Source of the DNA: Ophelia neglecta
Taxonomy: Eukaryota
DNA length: 64,000 bases
Assembly: GCA_965285935.1 (NCBI GenBank)
Contig: OZ260664.1
Coordinates: 71,920,001 to 71,984,000 of the forward strand
Direction: 5' to 3'
Shown here: piece by piece, positions 12,001-21,000 of the stretch
Position numbering within the stretch: position 1 is the first letter of the stretch
Layout: each line of letters opens with the position of its first letter
Program-made: the position numbers

Positions 12001-15000
12001 GGTGTCCTCGTACCACCACTCTAAAGACCTAGTACTTGCTTCTGGCCGAAGCCCCTCATTTGCTATTTAAATTTGCCATGTACACACATCTTGCAAATTC
12101 ATCAAGATAATTAGGGTCGTCTTCAAACATCATACCTTCTGGAACAATTCCGTGAAGCTTACGATAAGGTTCTCAGCTATGCAGTTGCTAATTTGTATTT
12201 CTTTTAACTTAGAAGGCTTTATGAAAAGTCTGAATTGAACCAATATCTTCACTTTCGATATATGGAGTTCATTATAGGCTTCATACAAGCATCTAAAACA
12301 GTGTCCCAATCGGCTTGTTTGGTGCACGTGTATAATTAATCAAATTTGTGTTACGGAACTTAATATACTTCACACATGTGGGGATGTGATTTTTAAAACC
12401 GATGAAAAATAATTGTGGAGTAGTGTTTGAATATATCGGCTAGGGTAGTGCCAGCAGTGCAGTCACGCAATTTGAGAAAACGTTTCAAAGTAATTTGGTC
12501 GATGATCGTAGCTGGTGTAGCGATATTTCGCGTTAGTAGTTTTATCACTGGGACCTGGTATTAAACAAATCAAAAAGTGAACTTTTAAAACATCGTACTA
12601 TAGCCATGCTATAAATAAGATCGTACTGTAGAGAATATATTTGAAATTGTTGTCAGCAAAAGAATCCATAGAGCGCATGGAGCTACTAGACACCAATGAA
12701 TACTACCATATAATCGAGTCATTATTATTGAAAAAATTACATGTTCCATTATAATATGAATGGTACAGGTGTAAAAATTTTAATGAGTGGGCGACGCGAT
12801 GTTCAAAATAATATTCAACATTTTCATATTCATATTCTTTAATAACATGTAACAAAGAATTATTTATTTATTTATTGTAACTTATACAAGTGGTAATGTA
12901 AAATGAAATCTTGTTAATATTTATATTTATAAACAAATGGCATATTCACAGACAATTATCTGTGGGATAGTTTTACATGAGAAACGTTGCTCAGTCAATA
13001 TGTAGTTTATAAAGTTAATAAACTGGGAATTCGCCCTCATCTAACCCCTCCGAATAAACCATGTATCTACCGTTGGTTAATGTATGTCTTGGGATCATAC
13101 TTCCTTCATTAGATTTCAGTGAATTCACCTCTGGAGGTCGCCCCATGGTTTCTAAATAATCTCCTTGTTGTTTGAAAATATTGAACACTGAAATTCGGCC
13201 ACGGCCTCTTTGCTGTTGGCTTTCTTTAGACTGGTCATTGTTATTGTTGCTTTGCTGACGGGTGGGATCTGTGAAATGTGGCGGGTGTGGGGGTTGTCGT
13301 TGGTAGCCTGAAGCTTCTGGTGAAGATTTCTCCCAGGGTTTGTATTTAATCATACAAGCCACCAAAATGATTAGAGCCACTGCTACGAATCCTGCCACAA
13401 TTCCAAAAATTAACGCAAAATCTGTCGTCTGCTCTTGCCCGGCTAGCATTCTGGGGCTTATATATTGCAGGAACCCTACTTCATGGCTGATATACTTGCC
13501 TATGTTCACCTGTAAAAGACAACACACGTGTACATGTCATGGGAATCGGTAGCATATTCCCCCGTGCCAGTAGGTATTAATAAAATCAAAATCAAATATT
13601 GATGTGGAGACGCCATTGCGAGATATCTATGCTGGTTTGTCAATATCAAATTCAATTTCCGTATTATTTTACTACTTTTTTTTAAACACGTAAAATATTC
13701 GCTATACTTCTCGTTCACACAACGCCAATTTGATTGCTTACTCTAACTAATTCTTGAGACAGTCCTGTGGTGTTATCGACTACAGCATTCCGATAAGGAA
13801 GTTTACAGACTAGCCAATCAGATTCCAGCTGCATCATTACACATTCTTCCCCCGAAACATATACACCATAGTCATGTATTGTGCAACCTTCGCTTAAGTC
13901 TTGACCCTAAACAAAAAACATGACGTGTCAATTTTACAAAAATTCTAATTTGCATAGCAATATCGCTCGACGGAATCATCAAGTCTCCAAGTACATGCGT
14001 GCCCCTATCTGTGAACTTAAAATAAAAAAGCCTGCTGTTATTTTTTGTGCTAATTTTGTATTAAACGTCTAGATATGTTGGAAAAAACTCACCGTAATGT
14101 TAAGAAAGGGGTGGGTAAATGGATGCTGTCTAACACCTTTATTAAAGTAGTTAATGTTGGGATCGGGGACAACTGTAATTTCTCCGAACTCTGGCAGGGC
14201 TTTGGTCACATTCTGGTATCGTTCATAACCGTCAAACTCAAATCCAAGCCTGATCGAGATGGTTACCCTCTTCATAAGGAAAAAATCTAGTTTTTGTCTG
14301 TTTTTTAATTCTGGAAGGAAGAAAGCATTTTCATGTACACAATCAAAGATGTTAGAACGTGTACCCTAGTTTCAAGTTTGTCACAAGATACCACTGCTAG
14401 CAAATTGACCGTTTGTGATTTGATGTCTACAATAAAGAGATCTTACCCGTGTCTGGTAGAGACCTCTTCCCCCTGGAACTATTTAATCCCGAGATGAGGG
14501 TTAAGTTAGGTGTAATGCATTCCAGTAATGTTGAGTTTATGGCGGTGCACACCTGCAAATGTAATCCATTGTTATTAATTAAAAATAAAAAGAATCTTGA
14601 AGCAGAAAAATGCTCATATAAAAATTCTATATACGGTTGTTCACTGATGGTATCTTACACGAAAAAAGAATTTTTATATTATGTCTCTCTAATTAAAAAT
14701 TTTATCCCTAGGGTATTCCGAAGGTAGCTTCCGGCCTAGCCTTACCTGGGAGAACATTGCTTCTTCCGCCTCACCGTTCGCCATGTCGAATCTGACATAG
14801 AGATTTAATACAGGCTTTGCGACGGAGTCAAGGTACGATCCCTCAACAAATAATTTTATACCCCCACTGCAAAAGAATTCAGAAACATCGGTCTCGCATA
14901 TGCATGCAATCCAAACACGGGGCAGTTAGCAATAACTGAAAGACTACCATTGCCAAAACATAATTTTAAAGCTGTAGCGAATGGACAGATAGATAGACTA

Positions 15001-18000: not shown

Positions 18001-21000
18001 AATACGTTACTTTACCTAAATACCTACTTCTACATATAGTATATGCGGGAAAAACAGTACTACATTGTTAGGATTTTTATTTGTCAAAGTACTTTTCTTT
18101 GTCGCGGAAGTTTGATTGTAGCAAATATCATGGAAGTTAACGCAGGTTTAAGGCCATGCAACCGCTGTGGGCCTTATTTCTTTGGCCAATGTGTCCTTTT
18201 TAAAACTGAATTTTGTAAATGTTGCTTGCGTATAAACAAATAACATAATGACACATATAAAACACGGAAGTAGACGGATGTTCTACCACGGTTTAGAGAT
18301 AACAAAACGTATGCTTCTGGAAAGGAAAATGCTGAATCAGGTGTCAAGAGAGGCCATCAAGGCATATAAAGTCCCCACACAGGAAATAAGAAAAAAATAT
18401 AAGTTATGCAGCCTTCTGTCAGAACTAAACTACCTTTACATGTACTCGCAAATTCAATTTGTTCCTTATTTGGTTAATTTTCATAGATAGGTTTTAGTTG
18501 AACTTTCAATATATCAACCCGGTTGGGAACCTAATAATGATGCGTAATAGATGTGCCAGAATATCTAGAACAATCACTATGATTTTTATGTCAGTTTTCC
18601 AGTCCAATTGACAAATATACGACTATACCTCGCGGAAGCTTAACGATTATGTACTGGTATAAGTGGAGCCAATTACTATGATATATATACATGCTATCAT
18701 TTAATCGTAAGAAATGTTTCCGACAGAATAGCGCGATTTCAGATTTCGCAATTATTTAGTATAGGATAAGTTCGCCACCATATATTATGACTAGCCTCTA
18801 AAATAACCACAAAAGGCAAACCTTCTATAAAGTTCATTATGTTTAAATGTTCTCGCAGGAAATATTAAAGAATTTGCAGCAGTCGCGAAAATCACAAACA
18901 TTTCAAAACGAGAACATTTAGCAATATGGCCTAGATTACAGCAGGATCCCTTCCGCATTGACATTGAAAACATTCTCTTTCACAGAGCACCGTTACTTCA
19001 TTATGATGTTCTTACAGCTAAGAAGCCGTGACAAGTAGATATTGTCCCAAAAAACCACGCACTAACATTTCTTTGTGTAATTAACCCTGGGGTGTTTTAT
19101 AAATGAGACGCTCTCTTTGACATTCCTTAGAAATAAACTTATTTACATTCTGACAATTTAGTAACTTTAGTAACAGCAGCCCATTACCTTTACCGTTTAC
19201 ACTGGTGACTTTGCATATGTCAAGAGTCCAGTTAGTCAGTCACCCCTTAAAACGGAGGGGCATGAGAGTTCACAGTGTCATGAAGGTCAGCACTTCACTG
19301 AAGGTCACCCGGTATCATATTAAATTTTAATACATTGTCCATCTTAGGAAACAATTAGAGATGTTTACTAATCGAGCTAAATCATATGCAGCTCTTTCTA
19401 TCATACTCTAATCTCCTTTACATCCTCAGCACATTAAATTGAAATAGGATAATTTTTACACAAACAATCACACCGGAATTAACTTAGGCACAATATATAT
19501 ATCGACAGTAATTACAAATAACAATTTATCAACACACTAAATTTGGAATCGACACCAACACGTACCTTGCTTGATAATCCGATCGACAACTGATTTTTTT
19601 TCACAGACTCACCACATTTGAAATATCCTAACCTCTGACTGGCGACACTAGGTGACTAAAATTAATACCTGTTCCGCGATATATACGGCCTCTTAAATAA
19701 TGACAAGCGACACAGTCACTTTTGCTGACATACTGACATAAAGATCGACCCATTAATACCAATCCCTGGGCCTATACTACAGACAACCAAACCACAACGA
19801 TTTAAAGCACGACGCACATGTATTTTGTTTTGGGTTGCGTAACTGATTTTGAAAATCATTACCAGTACCTACAGCTTCGTTATCACTGATGTTATTATCT
19901 AATTAAGTTCGTTTTCTAATTATTTAAGAGTGTACCCTTGTTGTACCTACCTGCAACATATATAATCCACAAGTGTGTCAGAAGACACGTCCTCCTGTGA
20001 GTAGCCATGTCTAAGAACTTGGCGGAAGGAACAATAATATACAGGTCCAGGTCGCCCTATAGGCCAAACAGGATTTAGTTTAAACACCTCGGTATTTCAT
20101 ACGTTTTGACATATTGCCTGCTAGGTTGTTTTCTCCCTTTATAAGCGCTCACTTGAAGCAGCCAATCCCGGCCTCACAAAACCTGCAAAACTGACTTTTG
20201 GTTCACGAAAACGAATATTTAGTGTTATCCTCCCTCCGCACTTCACACTTGCAGCCTTGTCTTGTATGTACATTGGGATTGTATCAGTAAAACCAACTAT
20301 ACACGTGATCGCTTGACAAAGCTCTCAAAACCACACACCCTCAGCTAGTTGTAAACCGACTTGATCATGCTTCAAGGATTTGTATAGAAACTCACTCATG
20401 TGAATCAAACAAGGTAGTTAATATTGTCACGGCCGCGCGACGAAAATCAAATATCAGTAGGTGGTAGCCAACTTGGGAAGACTTTTGGAACTTAAGATTG
20501 TTTTTATTTATTAAATTTCAAGTTTCACATTTTTAATTTGACATGTTCTATTACAGAAGCACTGAACACTTGTTCATAAAATGAAACAAATACTTTCCAT
20601 TACAAAATGGCTGACAGTGTCCAATTGAGTTTCTCTGCAAACTTGTATGAAAGCTCATCCAAAAAGATCCTAATTGACCATATCTGCAAAATGGATAATC
20701 TAACACTCACTTTCAATACCACATTCGATGCAAAAGCAAAATAAACTTATTAACAAGCAACGTCCCAAAATAGGACATGGATTCATCGATTGATTTTGGT
20801 AAAATAAGAAAGGGTGTGGCACCCGTCGGGACCGAAAACAAGACGTAGTCTTTTTCACAGTATACAGAGTAGTATTGATTTAGTATTTTATTGATGACCT
20901 GTAATCAACTAAAAAATTAACAAGCAGTAATACACGGGTGATTATCATAATAAGGGAGGGGCGAGCAGCTCTTTGGATTTATGACTGCCTAGGTTGATTG

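What the first reader, a model, noticed from the sequence alone, without database searches (positions are those of the whole stretch)
13015..20008. Plexin/MET-like receptor with a mucin region in place of Sema/PSI and no catalytic tail
Seen: signal peptide, ~210-aa Ser/Thr-rich exon with several N-glycosylation sequons, three IPT domains with plexin/MET-type motifs, TM, and a ~110-aa tail. Known: plexins and MET/RON carry an N-terminal Sema+PSI head and a GAP or kinase domain. Inference: a derived mucin-IPT surface protein that could act as decoy, co-receptor, or adhesion/barrier sensor. The mucin exon is symmetric (phase 1-1), consistent with exon shuffling. I do not recognise this architecture as a named family; it is the best novelty candidate among the proteins here.
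Basis: partly seen in the sequence, partly recalled or inferred. Interest (0 to 1): 0.72.

Follow-up and report, generated by a model that had tools for sequence, protein, structure and literature searches.

The report
Mucin-headed plexin-type IPT membrane protein
An intact nine-exon gene on the minus strand appears to encode a cell-surface glycoprotein with a sugar-coated mucin head, plexin-like Ig-type (IPT) domains, one membrane helix and a short unstructured tail; it is a new mix of familiar parts, not a new kind of system.

Summary
The nine-exon model is real in the sequence, on the minus strand (20008 down to 13015). All eight introns are GT-AG, phases are consistent, and the sum is 2103 nt or 700 codons plus the stop. 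Confirmed: a 639-nt phase 1-1 Ser/Thr-rich exon (S+T 0.49, 7 N-glycosylation sequons), a membrane helix and a 110-aa tail with no predicted fold.

Only the first IPT domain is shown by homology. Exon 3 hits 9 of 9 plexin or MET chains in the PDB, best E 3.7e-6. IPT2 and IPT3 rest on weak leads.

No Sema, PSI, GAP or kinase hit appeared in 30 flanking and intronic minus-strand ORFs.

New here: the gene's single R-x-K/R-R convertase motif lies in a loop of an over-long IPT2. Plexin-B proteins carry a 230-aa mucin-like domain and a convertase site in IPT5 (PMC10206189). They are the closest known relatives by layout.

No relative was found, but queries were single exons and no eukaryotic genome set was on hand. 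The joined protein was never built, searched or folded. Interest is moderate to low.

The parts
19951..20008 (-). Exon 1: ATG at 20008-20006, 19 codons plus 1 base, ends in phase 1. It holds the n-region (two Arg) and the first part of the hydrophobic core of a likely signal peptide.
   Evidence: donor gtaggt; G at -3 and +4 of the ATG; an in-frame stop lies upstream in the same ORF. No signal-peptide predictor was run.
20138..20143 (-). TATAAA-like box 135 nt upstream of the ATG
   Evidence: This is a motif match only.
15940..16578 (-). Exon 2: 639 nt, phase 1-1 (symmetric). It holds the end of the signal peptide and then a mucin-like Ser/Thr-rich region of about 205 aa.
   Evidence: S+T 0.49, Pro 0.06, 0 Cys, 7 N-x-S/T sequons; acceptor with a long pyrimidine tract, donor gtaagt.
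16229..16412 (-). Degenerate 21-nt (7-aa, Ser-rich) tandem repeats inside exon 2
   Evidence: periods 21 and 42, 71-79% matches.
15428..15575 (-). Exon 3: start of IPT1 (A and B strands, with a P-x-F-I...GP..GGT...G.NL type motif); 2 N-glycosylation sequons
   Evidence: Pfam TIG E 0.0012, 19.2 bits (cut-off 20.9); 9 of 9 PDB hits are plexin-A1/A2/A4 or MET, best E 3.7e-6.
15031..15183 (-). Exon 4: rest of IPT1 and the A strand of IPT2
   Evidence: Reading. E4 against E7 is the best of 21 exon pairs (4 of 300 shuffles reach it). No database hit.
14746..14866 (-). Exon 5: B-D strands of IPT2 (GG....V.G..L motif)
   Evidence: Reading. E3 against E5, 11 of 300 shuffles reach it. No database hit.
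14447..14552 (-). Exon 6: the Cys...Cys-x-x-Pro strand pair of IPT2, 3 N-glycosylation sequons, then a loop
   Evidence: the only PDB hit is Plexin-A2 chain residues 1055-1072, 11 of 18 identical by my count of the printed alignment, at E 6.1 (not significant alone).
14463..14474 (-). R-G-K-R, followed by Ser: the only R-x-[KR]-R (furin/proprotein-convertase type) motif in the nine exons
   Evidence: 1 site in the 9 exons; 173 of 5000 per-exon shuffles of E3-E8 give at least one. Cleavage itself is inferred, not shown.
14093..14310 (-). Exon 7: last strands of the over-long IPT2 and the A strand of IPT3; 2 N-glycosylation sequons
   Evidence: Reading. E4-E7 and E3-E7 are among the three best pairs. 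No database hit.
13742..13906 (-). Exon 8: core of IPT3 (G..L...C......L.C.LP motif; 3 Cys)
   Evidence: 10 of the 10 best named Atlas hits carry Pfam TIG, scores 0.78-0.86 (lead only). No PDB or Pfam hit.
13420..13509 (-). Exon 9, first 30 codons: end of IPT3 and the juxtamembrane linker
   Evidence: Reading; no test.
13348..13419 (-). Transmembrane helix (E9 residues 31-54), followed by K-Y-K
   Evidence: 19-residue hydropathy maximum 3.06; helix 29-55, pLDDT 88-96.
13015..13347 (-). Cytoplasmic tail of 110 aa plus the stop codon: 6 Tyr, 11 Pro, a Q/N/S-rich stretch, no domain
   Evidence: composition; the tail alone has 0 Pfam families; pLDDT below 50 for residues 79-89 and 93-164. Atlas lists only generic single-pass tails, scores 0.90 or lower.
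12863..12876 (-). Two AATAAA polyadenylation-type signals 139 and 147 nt after the stop
   Evidence: These are motif matches only.

Best explanation
This is an intact, probably lineage-restricted gene of a non-human, most likely invertebrate, animal. It encodes a roughly 700-aa type I membrane glycoprotein.

The layout, from outside to inside, is:
- a signal peptide;
- an N-terminal mucin-like head of about 205 aa (dense O-glycan sites, 7 N-glycan sequons);
- three plexin/MET-type IPT (Ig-like) domains forming the membrane-proximal stalk, the middle one over-long with a loop carrying one furin-type R-G-K-R site;
- one membrane helix;
- a 110-aa unstructured tail with Tyr and Pro motifs and no enzyme domain.

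The most likely working, all inferred, is as follows. The protein acts as a membrane-tethered mucin-like surface protein for glycocalyx, barrier or anti-adhesion duty. It is cut by a proprotein convertase inside IPT2 on its way to the surface, as plexin-B1/B2 are in IPT5. It then exists as two non-covalently joined chains, because both Cys of exon 6 lie before the site. The outer chain can be shed. The tail can only signal by recruiting other proteins.

The most likely origin is the membrane-proximal IPT block of a plexin-family gene, with a symmetric phase 1-1 mucin exon set between the signal-peptide exon and the IPT block.

Shown: gene structure, composition, the membrane helix, the lack of a tail domain, and plexin/MET-type similarity of exon 3. 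Inferred: IPT2 and IPT3 as full domains, glycosylation, cleavage, function and origin.
For: - Gene model: 9 exons, 8 GT-AG introns, consistent phases, 2103 nt. TATA-like box and AATAAA signals are in the right places. Exon GC of 0.40-0.47 exceeds the window's ~0.37.
- Mucin exon: S+T 0.49, 7 sequons, 7-aa degenerate repeats.
- IPT1: Pfam TIG E 0.0012; 9 of 9 PDB hits are plexin or MET, best E 3.7e-6, and no other TIG-bearing family appears.
- IPT2: the sole PDB hit of E6 is a Plexin-A2 membrane-proximal IPT.
- IPT3: 10 of the 10 best named Atlas hits of E8 are TIG.
- Internal periodicity: the three best of 21 exon pairs are the three expected from an IPT repeat.
- Convertase motif: one site only, in the ectodomain loop after the Cys...Cys-x-x-Pro motif; 173 of 5000 shuffles match it.
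- Plexin-B parallel: a 230-aa mucin-like domain and a convertase site in IPT5 (PMC10206189, passages read).
- Tail: no Pfam family, no predicted fold.
- No further domains: 0 of 30 flanking and intronic minus-strand ORFs hit Sema, PSI, TIG, plexin-cytoplasmic or kinase models. 0 of 6 plus-strand ORFs hit anything.
Against: - Four of the six IPT-region exons (E4, E5, E7, E8) have no relevant PDB hit, and five of six have no Pfam hit. So two of the three IPT domains rest on a non-significant hit, a language-model lead and motif reading.
- The E3 Pfam score is below the curated cut-off.
- The internal-repeat scores do not survive correction for 21 comparisons.
- One R-x-K/R-R motif arises by chance in 3.5% of shuffles. 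Its equivalence to the plexin-B site is by rough position only.
- There is no transcript evidence and no orthologue: 3 of 3 word-based searches found nothing. The full HMMER search with E9 gave one hit, which I judge compositional.
- Selection, and hence function, is therefore unshown.
- Pro content of 0.06 is low for a classical PTS mucin domain.
- The whole-protein domain call was never made, because the joined model was left out.
Confidence: 0.55

Rival explanations
1. The model is a fragment of a larger plexin- or MET-like receptor gene. Its Sema/PSI exons, or a GAP or kinase domain, lie outside the model or in short exons that I missed.
For: E3 and E6 resemble the membrane-proximal IPTs of plexins. 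Exon-level Pfam is insensitive: it missed most of this gene's own IPT exons. So the negative scan of flanking ORFs is weak. Exons under 45 aa and the region beyond the transposon-like ORFs at 23123-25065 were not scanned.
Against: - E1 has a start codon in good context, a signal-peptide-like run and an upstream in-frame stop.
- E9 runs into a stop after a 110-aa tail, with AATAAA 139 nt later.
- A separate transporter gene starts about 3.4 kb downstream on the same strand.
- 0 of 30 ORFs hit any plexin, MET or kinase model. Kinase and plexin GAP domains are usually easy to see even in pieces.
- The IPT-region exons hold 6 Cys in all, so there is no PSI domain.
Confidence: 0.1
2. It is a homophilic or heterophilic recognition and adhesion receptor that binds through its IPT domains, as the Dictyostelium TgrB1/TgrC1 pair does. 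The mucin head would only be a spacer or a shield.
For: IPT/TIG ectodomains with a single membrane helix and a signalling tail mediate cell-cell binding and self-recognition in Dictyostelium (PMC12745789, passages). The absence of any detectable relative would fit a fast-evolving recognition gene.
Against: - The mucin head is distal to the IPT domains, so it would shield them rather than present them.
- No paralogue or tandem family exists in the window: tblastn of all nine exons finds only the exons themselves.
- No polymorphism data are available.
Confidence: 0.12
3. It is a decoy or co-receptor that joins plexin or MET-type receptors in cis through IPT-IPT contacts and tunes semaphorin or growth-factor signalling.
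For: The IPT type is plexin/MET-like. The papers read note that O-mannose on IPT B-strands may guide or influence cis-interactions and dimerisation of plexins at the cell surface (PMC10214176, PMC11292533, passages).
Against: There is no evidence of any partner. Similarity to plexins is confined to short motifs. No complex prediction was run, because domains cannot be formed from single exons.
Confidence: 0.1
4. It is a silent or decaying gene copy (a young partial duplicate or a pseudogene) that merely still has open frames.
For: There is no self-hit and no relative in a 15-billion-protein collection. There is no transcript evidence. A transposon-like ORF lies about 3 kb upstream.
Against: - All nine exons are open and all splice sites are canonical.
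- Promoter-like and poly(A) motifs are in place.
- The divergence from plexins is far too great for a young duplicate, and an old dead copy would not keep 700 codons open.
Confidence: 0.08

Closest known systems
Plexin-B subfamily ectodomain (Plexin-B1/B2), C-terminal part
   Same: - It combines a mucin-like domain of about 230 aa with plexin-type IPT domains, and has a proprotein-convertase site inside a membrane-proximal IPT, IPT5 (PMC10206189, passages).
- Here the mucin exon is 213 codons.
- E3 is plexin-type.
- E6 aligns to a membrane-proximal Plexin-A2 IPT, and R-G-K-R follows 9 residues after that stretch.
   Different: - There are no Sema or PSI domains and no cytoplasmic GAP domain.
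- There are three IPTs, not six.
- The mucin region is N-terminal, not inserted after PSI2.
- Similarity is detectable only in short motifs. No orthology is shown.
MET/RON receptor tyrosine kinases
   Same: The IPT domains are of the same subtype: 4 of the 9 PDB hits of E3 are MET. Both are type I membrane topology.
   Different: There is no Sema or PSI head and no kinase. The tail is 110 aa with no Pfam family.
Membrane-tethered mucins (MUC1, MUC13 and MUC17 type; yeast Msb2 as a signalling mucin)
   Same: - Same order of parts: a distal Ser/Thr-rich repeat domain, a folded membrane-proximal module, one membrane helix and a short tail without enzyme activity.
- In the known proteins the proximal SEA module is cleaved, giving two joined chains. 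The SEA cleavage detail is recalled. The listing shows only titles and abstracts.
- The Atlas puts the E9 tail near a 'MUC1 protein (Fragment)' cluster at 0.89, a lead only.
   Different: - No SEA or EGF module was found.
- The proximal module is IPT.
- The mucin region is short and Pro-poor (0.06), with only degenerate repeats.
- Any cleavage would be by a convertase, not autocatalytic.
Fibrocystin (PKHD1) and fibrocystin-L
   Same: They are type I proteins with IPT domains and a non-catalytic tail (192 aa in fibrocystin). Fibrocystin also has convertase cleavage giving a two-chain form and a shed ectodomain (PMC13424714, passages).
   Different: Fibrocystin is about 4000 aa, with PA14, G8 and PbH1 modules and 12 IPTs, and its chains are disulfide-linked. 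None of those modules was found here. E3's PDB hits are plexin and MET only.
Dictyostelium Tgr proteins (TgrB1/TgrC1)
   Same: Their ectodomains are built of TIG/IPT domains, with one membrane helix and a signalling cytoplasmic part (PMC12745789, passages).
   Different: They are from an amoebozoan, they form a large polymorphic gene family, and no mucin head is described in the passages read. No sequence comparison was made here.

Membership tests
Plexins | N-terminal Sema domain | tested here: not met
   No Sema hit in the 8 exon ORFs or in 30 flanking and intronic minus-strand ORFs. Exon-level Pfam has limited power.
Plexins | PSI (Cys-rich) domains between IPTs | tested here: not met
   No PSI hit. 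Exons E3-E8 hold 0, 1, 0, 2, 0 and 3 Cys, too few for a PSI domain (the Cys requirement is recalled).
Plexins | Plexin-type IPT domains | tested here: inconclusive
   E3 is met at exon level (E 3.7e-6; the Pfam TIG score of 19.2 is below the 20.9 cut-off). E6 has a non-significant Plexin-A2 hit. E8 has an Atlas TIG lead. E4, E5 and E7 have nothing. Whole domains could not be tested without joining exons.
Plexins | Cytoplasmic Ras/Rap-GAP domain with RBD insert | tested here: not met
   The tail is 110 aa, has 0 Pfam families and no predicted fold. A stop codon and AATAAA signals follow.
MET/RON receptor kinases | Cytoplasmic tyrosine kinase domain | tested here: not met
   Same evidence as for the GAP domain. 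No kinase hit in the downstream ORFs.
Membrane-tethered mucins | Pro/Thr/Ser-rich tandem-repeat domain | tested here: inconclusive
   S+T is 0.49 and 7-aa degenerate repeats are present. Pro is only 0.06 and the region is about 205 aa. Glycosylation is not testable here.
Membrane-tethered mucins | SEA (or EGF/VWD) module next to the membrane | tested here: not met
   No SEA, EGF or VWD Pfam hit in any exon ORF.
Delta-protocadherins (Pfam PF08374) | Cadherin repeats plus the family's membrane and cytoplasmic region | tested here: not met
   E9 scores 27.5 bits against a 26.3 cut-off. However, 20.2 bits come from the 60 residues that hold the membrane helix, and the tail alone gives no hit. No cadherin repeat was found in any exon. 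I read this as a membrane-helix match.
Fibrocystin / fibrocystin-L | PA14, G8 and PbH1 modules with many IPTs | tested here: not met
   None was found in the exon ORFs or flanks. Defining features are taken from PMC13424714.
Proprotein-convertase-processed receptors | Cleavage at R-x-K/R-R in the secretory pathway | not testable with these tools
   The motif is present once, in E6. Cleavage needs an experiment.
TMEM260 substrates (O-mannosylated IPT domains) | Conserved Ser/Thr on the IPT B-strand | not tested
   The E3 B-strand region holds one Thr (reading). The site lists of PMC10214176 are in figures and datasets that I could not see, so equivalence is open.

The most novel reading that the evidence does not exclude
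This would be a new class of membrane-tethered mucin in animals. A plexin-B-type IPT domain cut by a convertase takes the place of the SEA domain as the breakable joint. The two chains are held together only by the split Ig-like fold. Force or attack on the mucin head strips the outer chain, and the remaining stub, with its Tyr/Pro-rich tail, reports the loss.
Probability: 0.12. Interest if true: 0.6.

Novelty: new variant of a known kind. Interest (0 to 1): 0.33.

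Why it matters
If expressed, it shows that the membrane-proximal IPT stalk of plexin/MET-type receptors can be reused without its ligand-binding head or its enzyme domain. In that reuse it serves as the anchor of a mucin-like surface protein.

It would also give a second, independent case of an Ig-like IPT domain carrying an internal convertase site. That would help test what such cleavage does in plexin-B1/B2, which is still poorly understood.

The value is modest. 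Each part is common in animal surface proteins. No relative, transcript or function is known for this gene. The organism is not identified.

Tried and rejected
- **Word-based homologue searches** with E9, E7 and E3, each with lengths='longer': 0 hits each, not even the window's own protein. The collection therefore seems not to hold this genome's annotation, and 'no relative' is weak evidence.
- **Full HMMER search** of 1.84 billion representatives with E9: 1 hit (P0001, E 2.8e-6, 5 stretches). Its sequence is a long Ser/Thr-rich repeat protein that matches the low-complexity part of the tail (residues 61-103). I rejected it as compositional.
- **PDB searches** with E7, E8, E4 and E5: only SRP54 (E 1.4), nothing, cytochrome b6 (E 1.1) and nothing. 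These are irrelevant.
- **Pfam 'Protocadherin' and 'LAX' hits of E9**: shown to be driven by the membrane helix and rejected as family membership.
- **Atlas on E9**: only generic single-pass tails, scores 0.90 or lower, recognition value 1819, below the tool's 2300 mark.
- **Paralogues in the window**: none.
- **Rfam and tRNA scans of the window**: 0 and 0.
- **Plus-strand ORFs over the locus**, including the 195-aa antisense ORF of the mucin exon: 0 of 6 with any Pfam hit.
- **Papers**: searches found no paper describing a mucin-plus-IPT-only membrane protein family. One search returned 0 papers. In one search none of the 12 listed papers holds 'IPT domain'.
- **Not run**: the second structure job and the complex job, because single exons do not form whole IPT domains.

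Full report
**Scope and limits.** The window is 64 kb with no N and about 37% GC. I did not take it for human. Seven of the gene's eight introns are 136-364 nt. None of three exon queries found any protein in a collection that includes the public reference proteomes.

The joined 700-codon protein was never assembled, searched, scanned or folded. Every statement about whole domains that span exons is therefore an inference.

The remaining sequence collections hold bacteria, archaea, phages, plasmids and E. coli. No eukaryotic genome could be searched for relatives. Supplementary files of papers were closed.

**What is in the sequence.** The feature lies on the minus strand. Stop-to-stop frames and the sequence itself give nine exons:
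- E1 20008-19951
- E2 16578-15940
- E3 15575-15428
- E4 15183-15031
- E5 14866-14746
- E6 14552-14447
- E7 14310-14093
- E8 13906-13742
- E9 13509-13015

Every intron starts with GT and ends with AG, most acceptors follow a pyrimidine tract, and the phases agree from exon to exon. The sum is 2103 nt.

E1 starts with an ATG that has G at -3 and +4, with an in-frame stop upstream. A TATAAA lies 135 nt before the ATG. Two AATAAA lie 139 and 147 nt after the stop.

Exon GC is 0.40-0.47 against about 0.37 for the window. The 248- and 173-codon open frames of E2 and E9 are among the few long frames in the window.

**The mucin exon.** Its 212 whole codons have S+T 0.49, Pro 0.06, no Cys and 7 N-x-S/T sequons. 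Positions 16229-16412 hold degenerate 21-nt repeats, that is, Ser-rich heptads.

The first few codons of E2 continue the hydrophobic run begun in E1. I read these together as a signal peptide, but no predictor was run.

The antisense strand of E2 carries a 195-codon open frame. That frame has no family hit and no splice partners. I take it as a by-product of the codon make-up.

**The IPT block, exon by exon.**
- E3 opens with the classical IPT A/B-strand motif. Pfam gives TIG at E 0.0012, 19.2 bits, under the 20.9 cut-off.
- Against the PDB, E3 has 9 hits at E up to 10, and all 9 are plexin-A1/A2/A4 (5) or MET (4). The best is Plexin-A1 domains 7-10 at E 3.7e-6. No other TIG-bearing family appears.
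- E6 has one PDB hit, Plexin-A2 chain residues 1055-1072, with 11 of 18 residues identical across the Cys...Cys-x-x-Pro strand pair by my count of the printed alignment. Its E of 6.1 is not significant on its own.
- E8 has no PDB or Pfam hit. The protein-language-model search puts it next to clusters that carry Pfam TIG: 10 of the 10 best named hits, scores 0.86, 0.85 and 0.83 for the best three. The recognition value of 2059 is below the tool's 2300 mark, so this is a lead only.
- E4, E5 and E7 have no relevant hit.
- Local alignment of seven exon pieces against one another, with 300 shuffles each, ranks E4-E7 (4 of 300), E3-E5 (11 of 300) and E3-E7 (18 of 300) as the best 3 of 21 pairs. These are the pairs expected if an IPT unit repeats. 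None would survive correction for 21 tests.

By motif reading, the three units start at E3 residue 2, E4 residue 38 and E7 residue 48. That gives lengths of about 86, 137 and 109 residues, the last including the linker. The middle one is 40-50 residues longer than a usual IPT.

In sum, one plexin/MET-type IPT is shown at exon level and two more are likely.

**No hidden head or enzyme domain.** I scanned 30 minus-strand open frames against Pfam. They were the ten longest frames (50-62 aa) in intron 1, six of the seven frames of 45 aa or more upstream between 20009 and 23122 (the seventh was scanned), and 14 of the 16 such frames between the stop and the next gene (the 60-aa frame at 10246-10425 and the 45-aa frame at 10826-10960 were left out). 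None hit Sema, PSI, TIG, plexin-cytoplasmic or kinase models, and only four sub-threshold chance matches appeared.

The next gene downstream on the same strand is an SLC22/MFS-like transporter. Its first exon lies at about 9371-9589. Upstream lie transposon-like frames at 23123-25065.

Two caveats apply. Exon-level Pfam is weak, since it missed most of this gene's own IPT exons. Frames under 45 aa were not scanned.

**Membrane helix and tail.** E9 residues 31-54 form a strongly hydrophobic segment with a 19-residue hydropathy maximum of 3.06. The single-sequence AlphaFold model gives a helix at 29-55 with pLDDT 88-96 and pLDDT below 50 for residues 79-89 and 93-164.

The tail is 110 residues, with 6 Tyr, 11 Pro and a Q/N/S-rich stretch. 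Scanned alone it has no Pfam family.

The Pfam 'Protocadherin' match of E9 is 27.5 bits against a 26.3 cut-off. It is mainly a membrane-helix match: the 60 residues around the helix give 20.2 bits and the tail gives nothing.

The Atlas lists only generic single-pass tails for E9, such as a MUC1 fragment, a cadherin Y-type LIR cluster, syndecan and LIME1, at scores 0.90 or lower.

**Relatives.** Three word-based searches (E9, E7, E3; longer proteins allowed) returned nothing. The full HMMER search with E9 returned one protein, a Ser/Thr-rich repeat protein that matches the low-complexity part of the tail in five stretches. I reject it as compositional.

Because not even the window's own protein was found, the collection probably lacks this genome's annotation. 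The absence of relatives therefore says little.

The nine exons hold exactly one R-x-[KR]-R motif, R-G-K-R followed by Ser, at 14474-14463 in E6. It lies 9 residues after the stretch that aligns to Plexin-A2, inside the over-long middle IPT. Shuffling each IPT exon gives at least one such motif in 173 of 5000 trials.

A paper on Plexin-B1 (PMC10206189, passages read) states two relevant things. The plexin-B family has a 230-aa mucin-like domain after PSI2. Plexin-B1 and -B2 have a proprotein-convertase site in IPT5.

So mucin-like region plus plexin-type IPTs plus a convertase site inside a membrane-proximal IPT is an existing combination in the plexin-B ectodomain. The present gene looks like a stripped-down relative of that part.

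Both Cys of E6 precede the motif. If the protein is cut, the two chains would be held only by the fold.

**How it most likely works (inferred).** The protein would enter the secretory pathway and receive dense O-glycans on the head. Up to 15 N-glycan sequons lie in E2-E8. It may be cut at R-G-K-R.

At the surface it would then be a two-chain, mucin-capped stalk, and the outer chain could be shed. With no enzyme domain, the tail can only act by binding other proteins.

This is the working pattern of membrane-tethered mucins. Fibrocystin is another IPT protein with convertase cleavage, a shed ectodomain and a non-catalytic tail (PMC13424714, passages).

Other readings are listed as rivals: recognition or adhesion as in Dictyostelium Tgr proteins (PMC12745789, passages), a cis-acting plexin or MET partner, a fragment of a larger gene, or a silent copy.

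The papers on TMEM260 say that B-strands of plexin and MET IPT domains are O-mannosylated (PMC10214176, passages; PMC11292533, passages). Whether this protein keeps such a site could not be judged, because the site lists are in figures and datasets I could not see.

**Membership and novelty.**
- It is not a plexin and not a MET-type kinase. The Sema, PSI, GAP and kinase features were tested and not met.
- It is not a classical SEA-type mucin, because no SEA module was found.
- It shares the IPT subtype with plexins and MET, and its overall working plan with tethered mucins.
- Three paper searches found no description of a mucin-plus-IPT-only membrane protein. These searches cover open-access text only.

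I rate it a new variant of a known kind. It is intact and tidy, with one suggestive extra feature, the convertase motif. It lacks transcript, orthologue or functional evidence, and each part is commonplace among animal surface proteins. Interest is 0.33.

Noticed in passing
window 4048-9589, minus strand: An SLC22/MFS-like transporter gene lies downstream on the same strand. Its exon-like frames are at 9371-9589 (N-terminal motif typical of organic-ion transporters, recalled), 7788-8141, 6540-7052 and 4583-4861. The Pfam hits are weak: Sugar_tr E 0.005 and MFS_1 E 0.00084.
   Followed up: partly
window 1-357, minus strand: An open frame running off the window start encodes ankyrin repeats (Ank_2 E 3.9e-12).
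   Followed up: partly
window 23123-25065, minus strand: Two adjacent long frames (450 and 175 aa) have no real Pfam family, and the first ends in a Cys-rich cluster. They look like a transposon or repeat-borne gene about 3 kb upstream of the IPT gene.
   Followed up: partly
window 57491-60376, plus strand: This 961-codon open frame is the longest in the window. It is Ser/Lys/Asn-rich and has no Pfam family. It is probably one giant exon of an unknown, largely disordered protein.
   Followed up: partly
window 16080-16667, plus strand: A 195-codon Asp/Glu/Val-rich frame lies antisense to the mucin exon. It has no Pfam hit and is most likely a side effect of the Ser/Thr codon make-up.
   Followed up: yes
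window 17654-17672: A 19-base G run on the plus strand (C run on the gene's strand) sits inside intron 1.
   Followed up: no
window 15940-16578, minus strand: Exon 2 is phase 1-1 and exon 3 also starts in phase 1. Skipping exon 2 would therefore keep the frame and give a mucin-less isoform. That isoform would also lose the last part of the hydrophobic signal run (reading).
   Followed up: no
window 27762-28460, plus strand: A 232-codon open frame with no Pfam family. Its nature is unknown.
   Followed up: no
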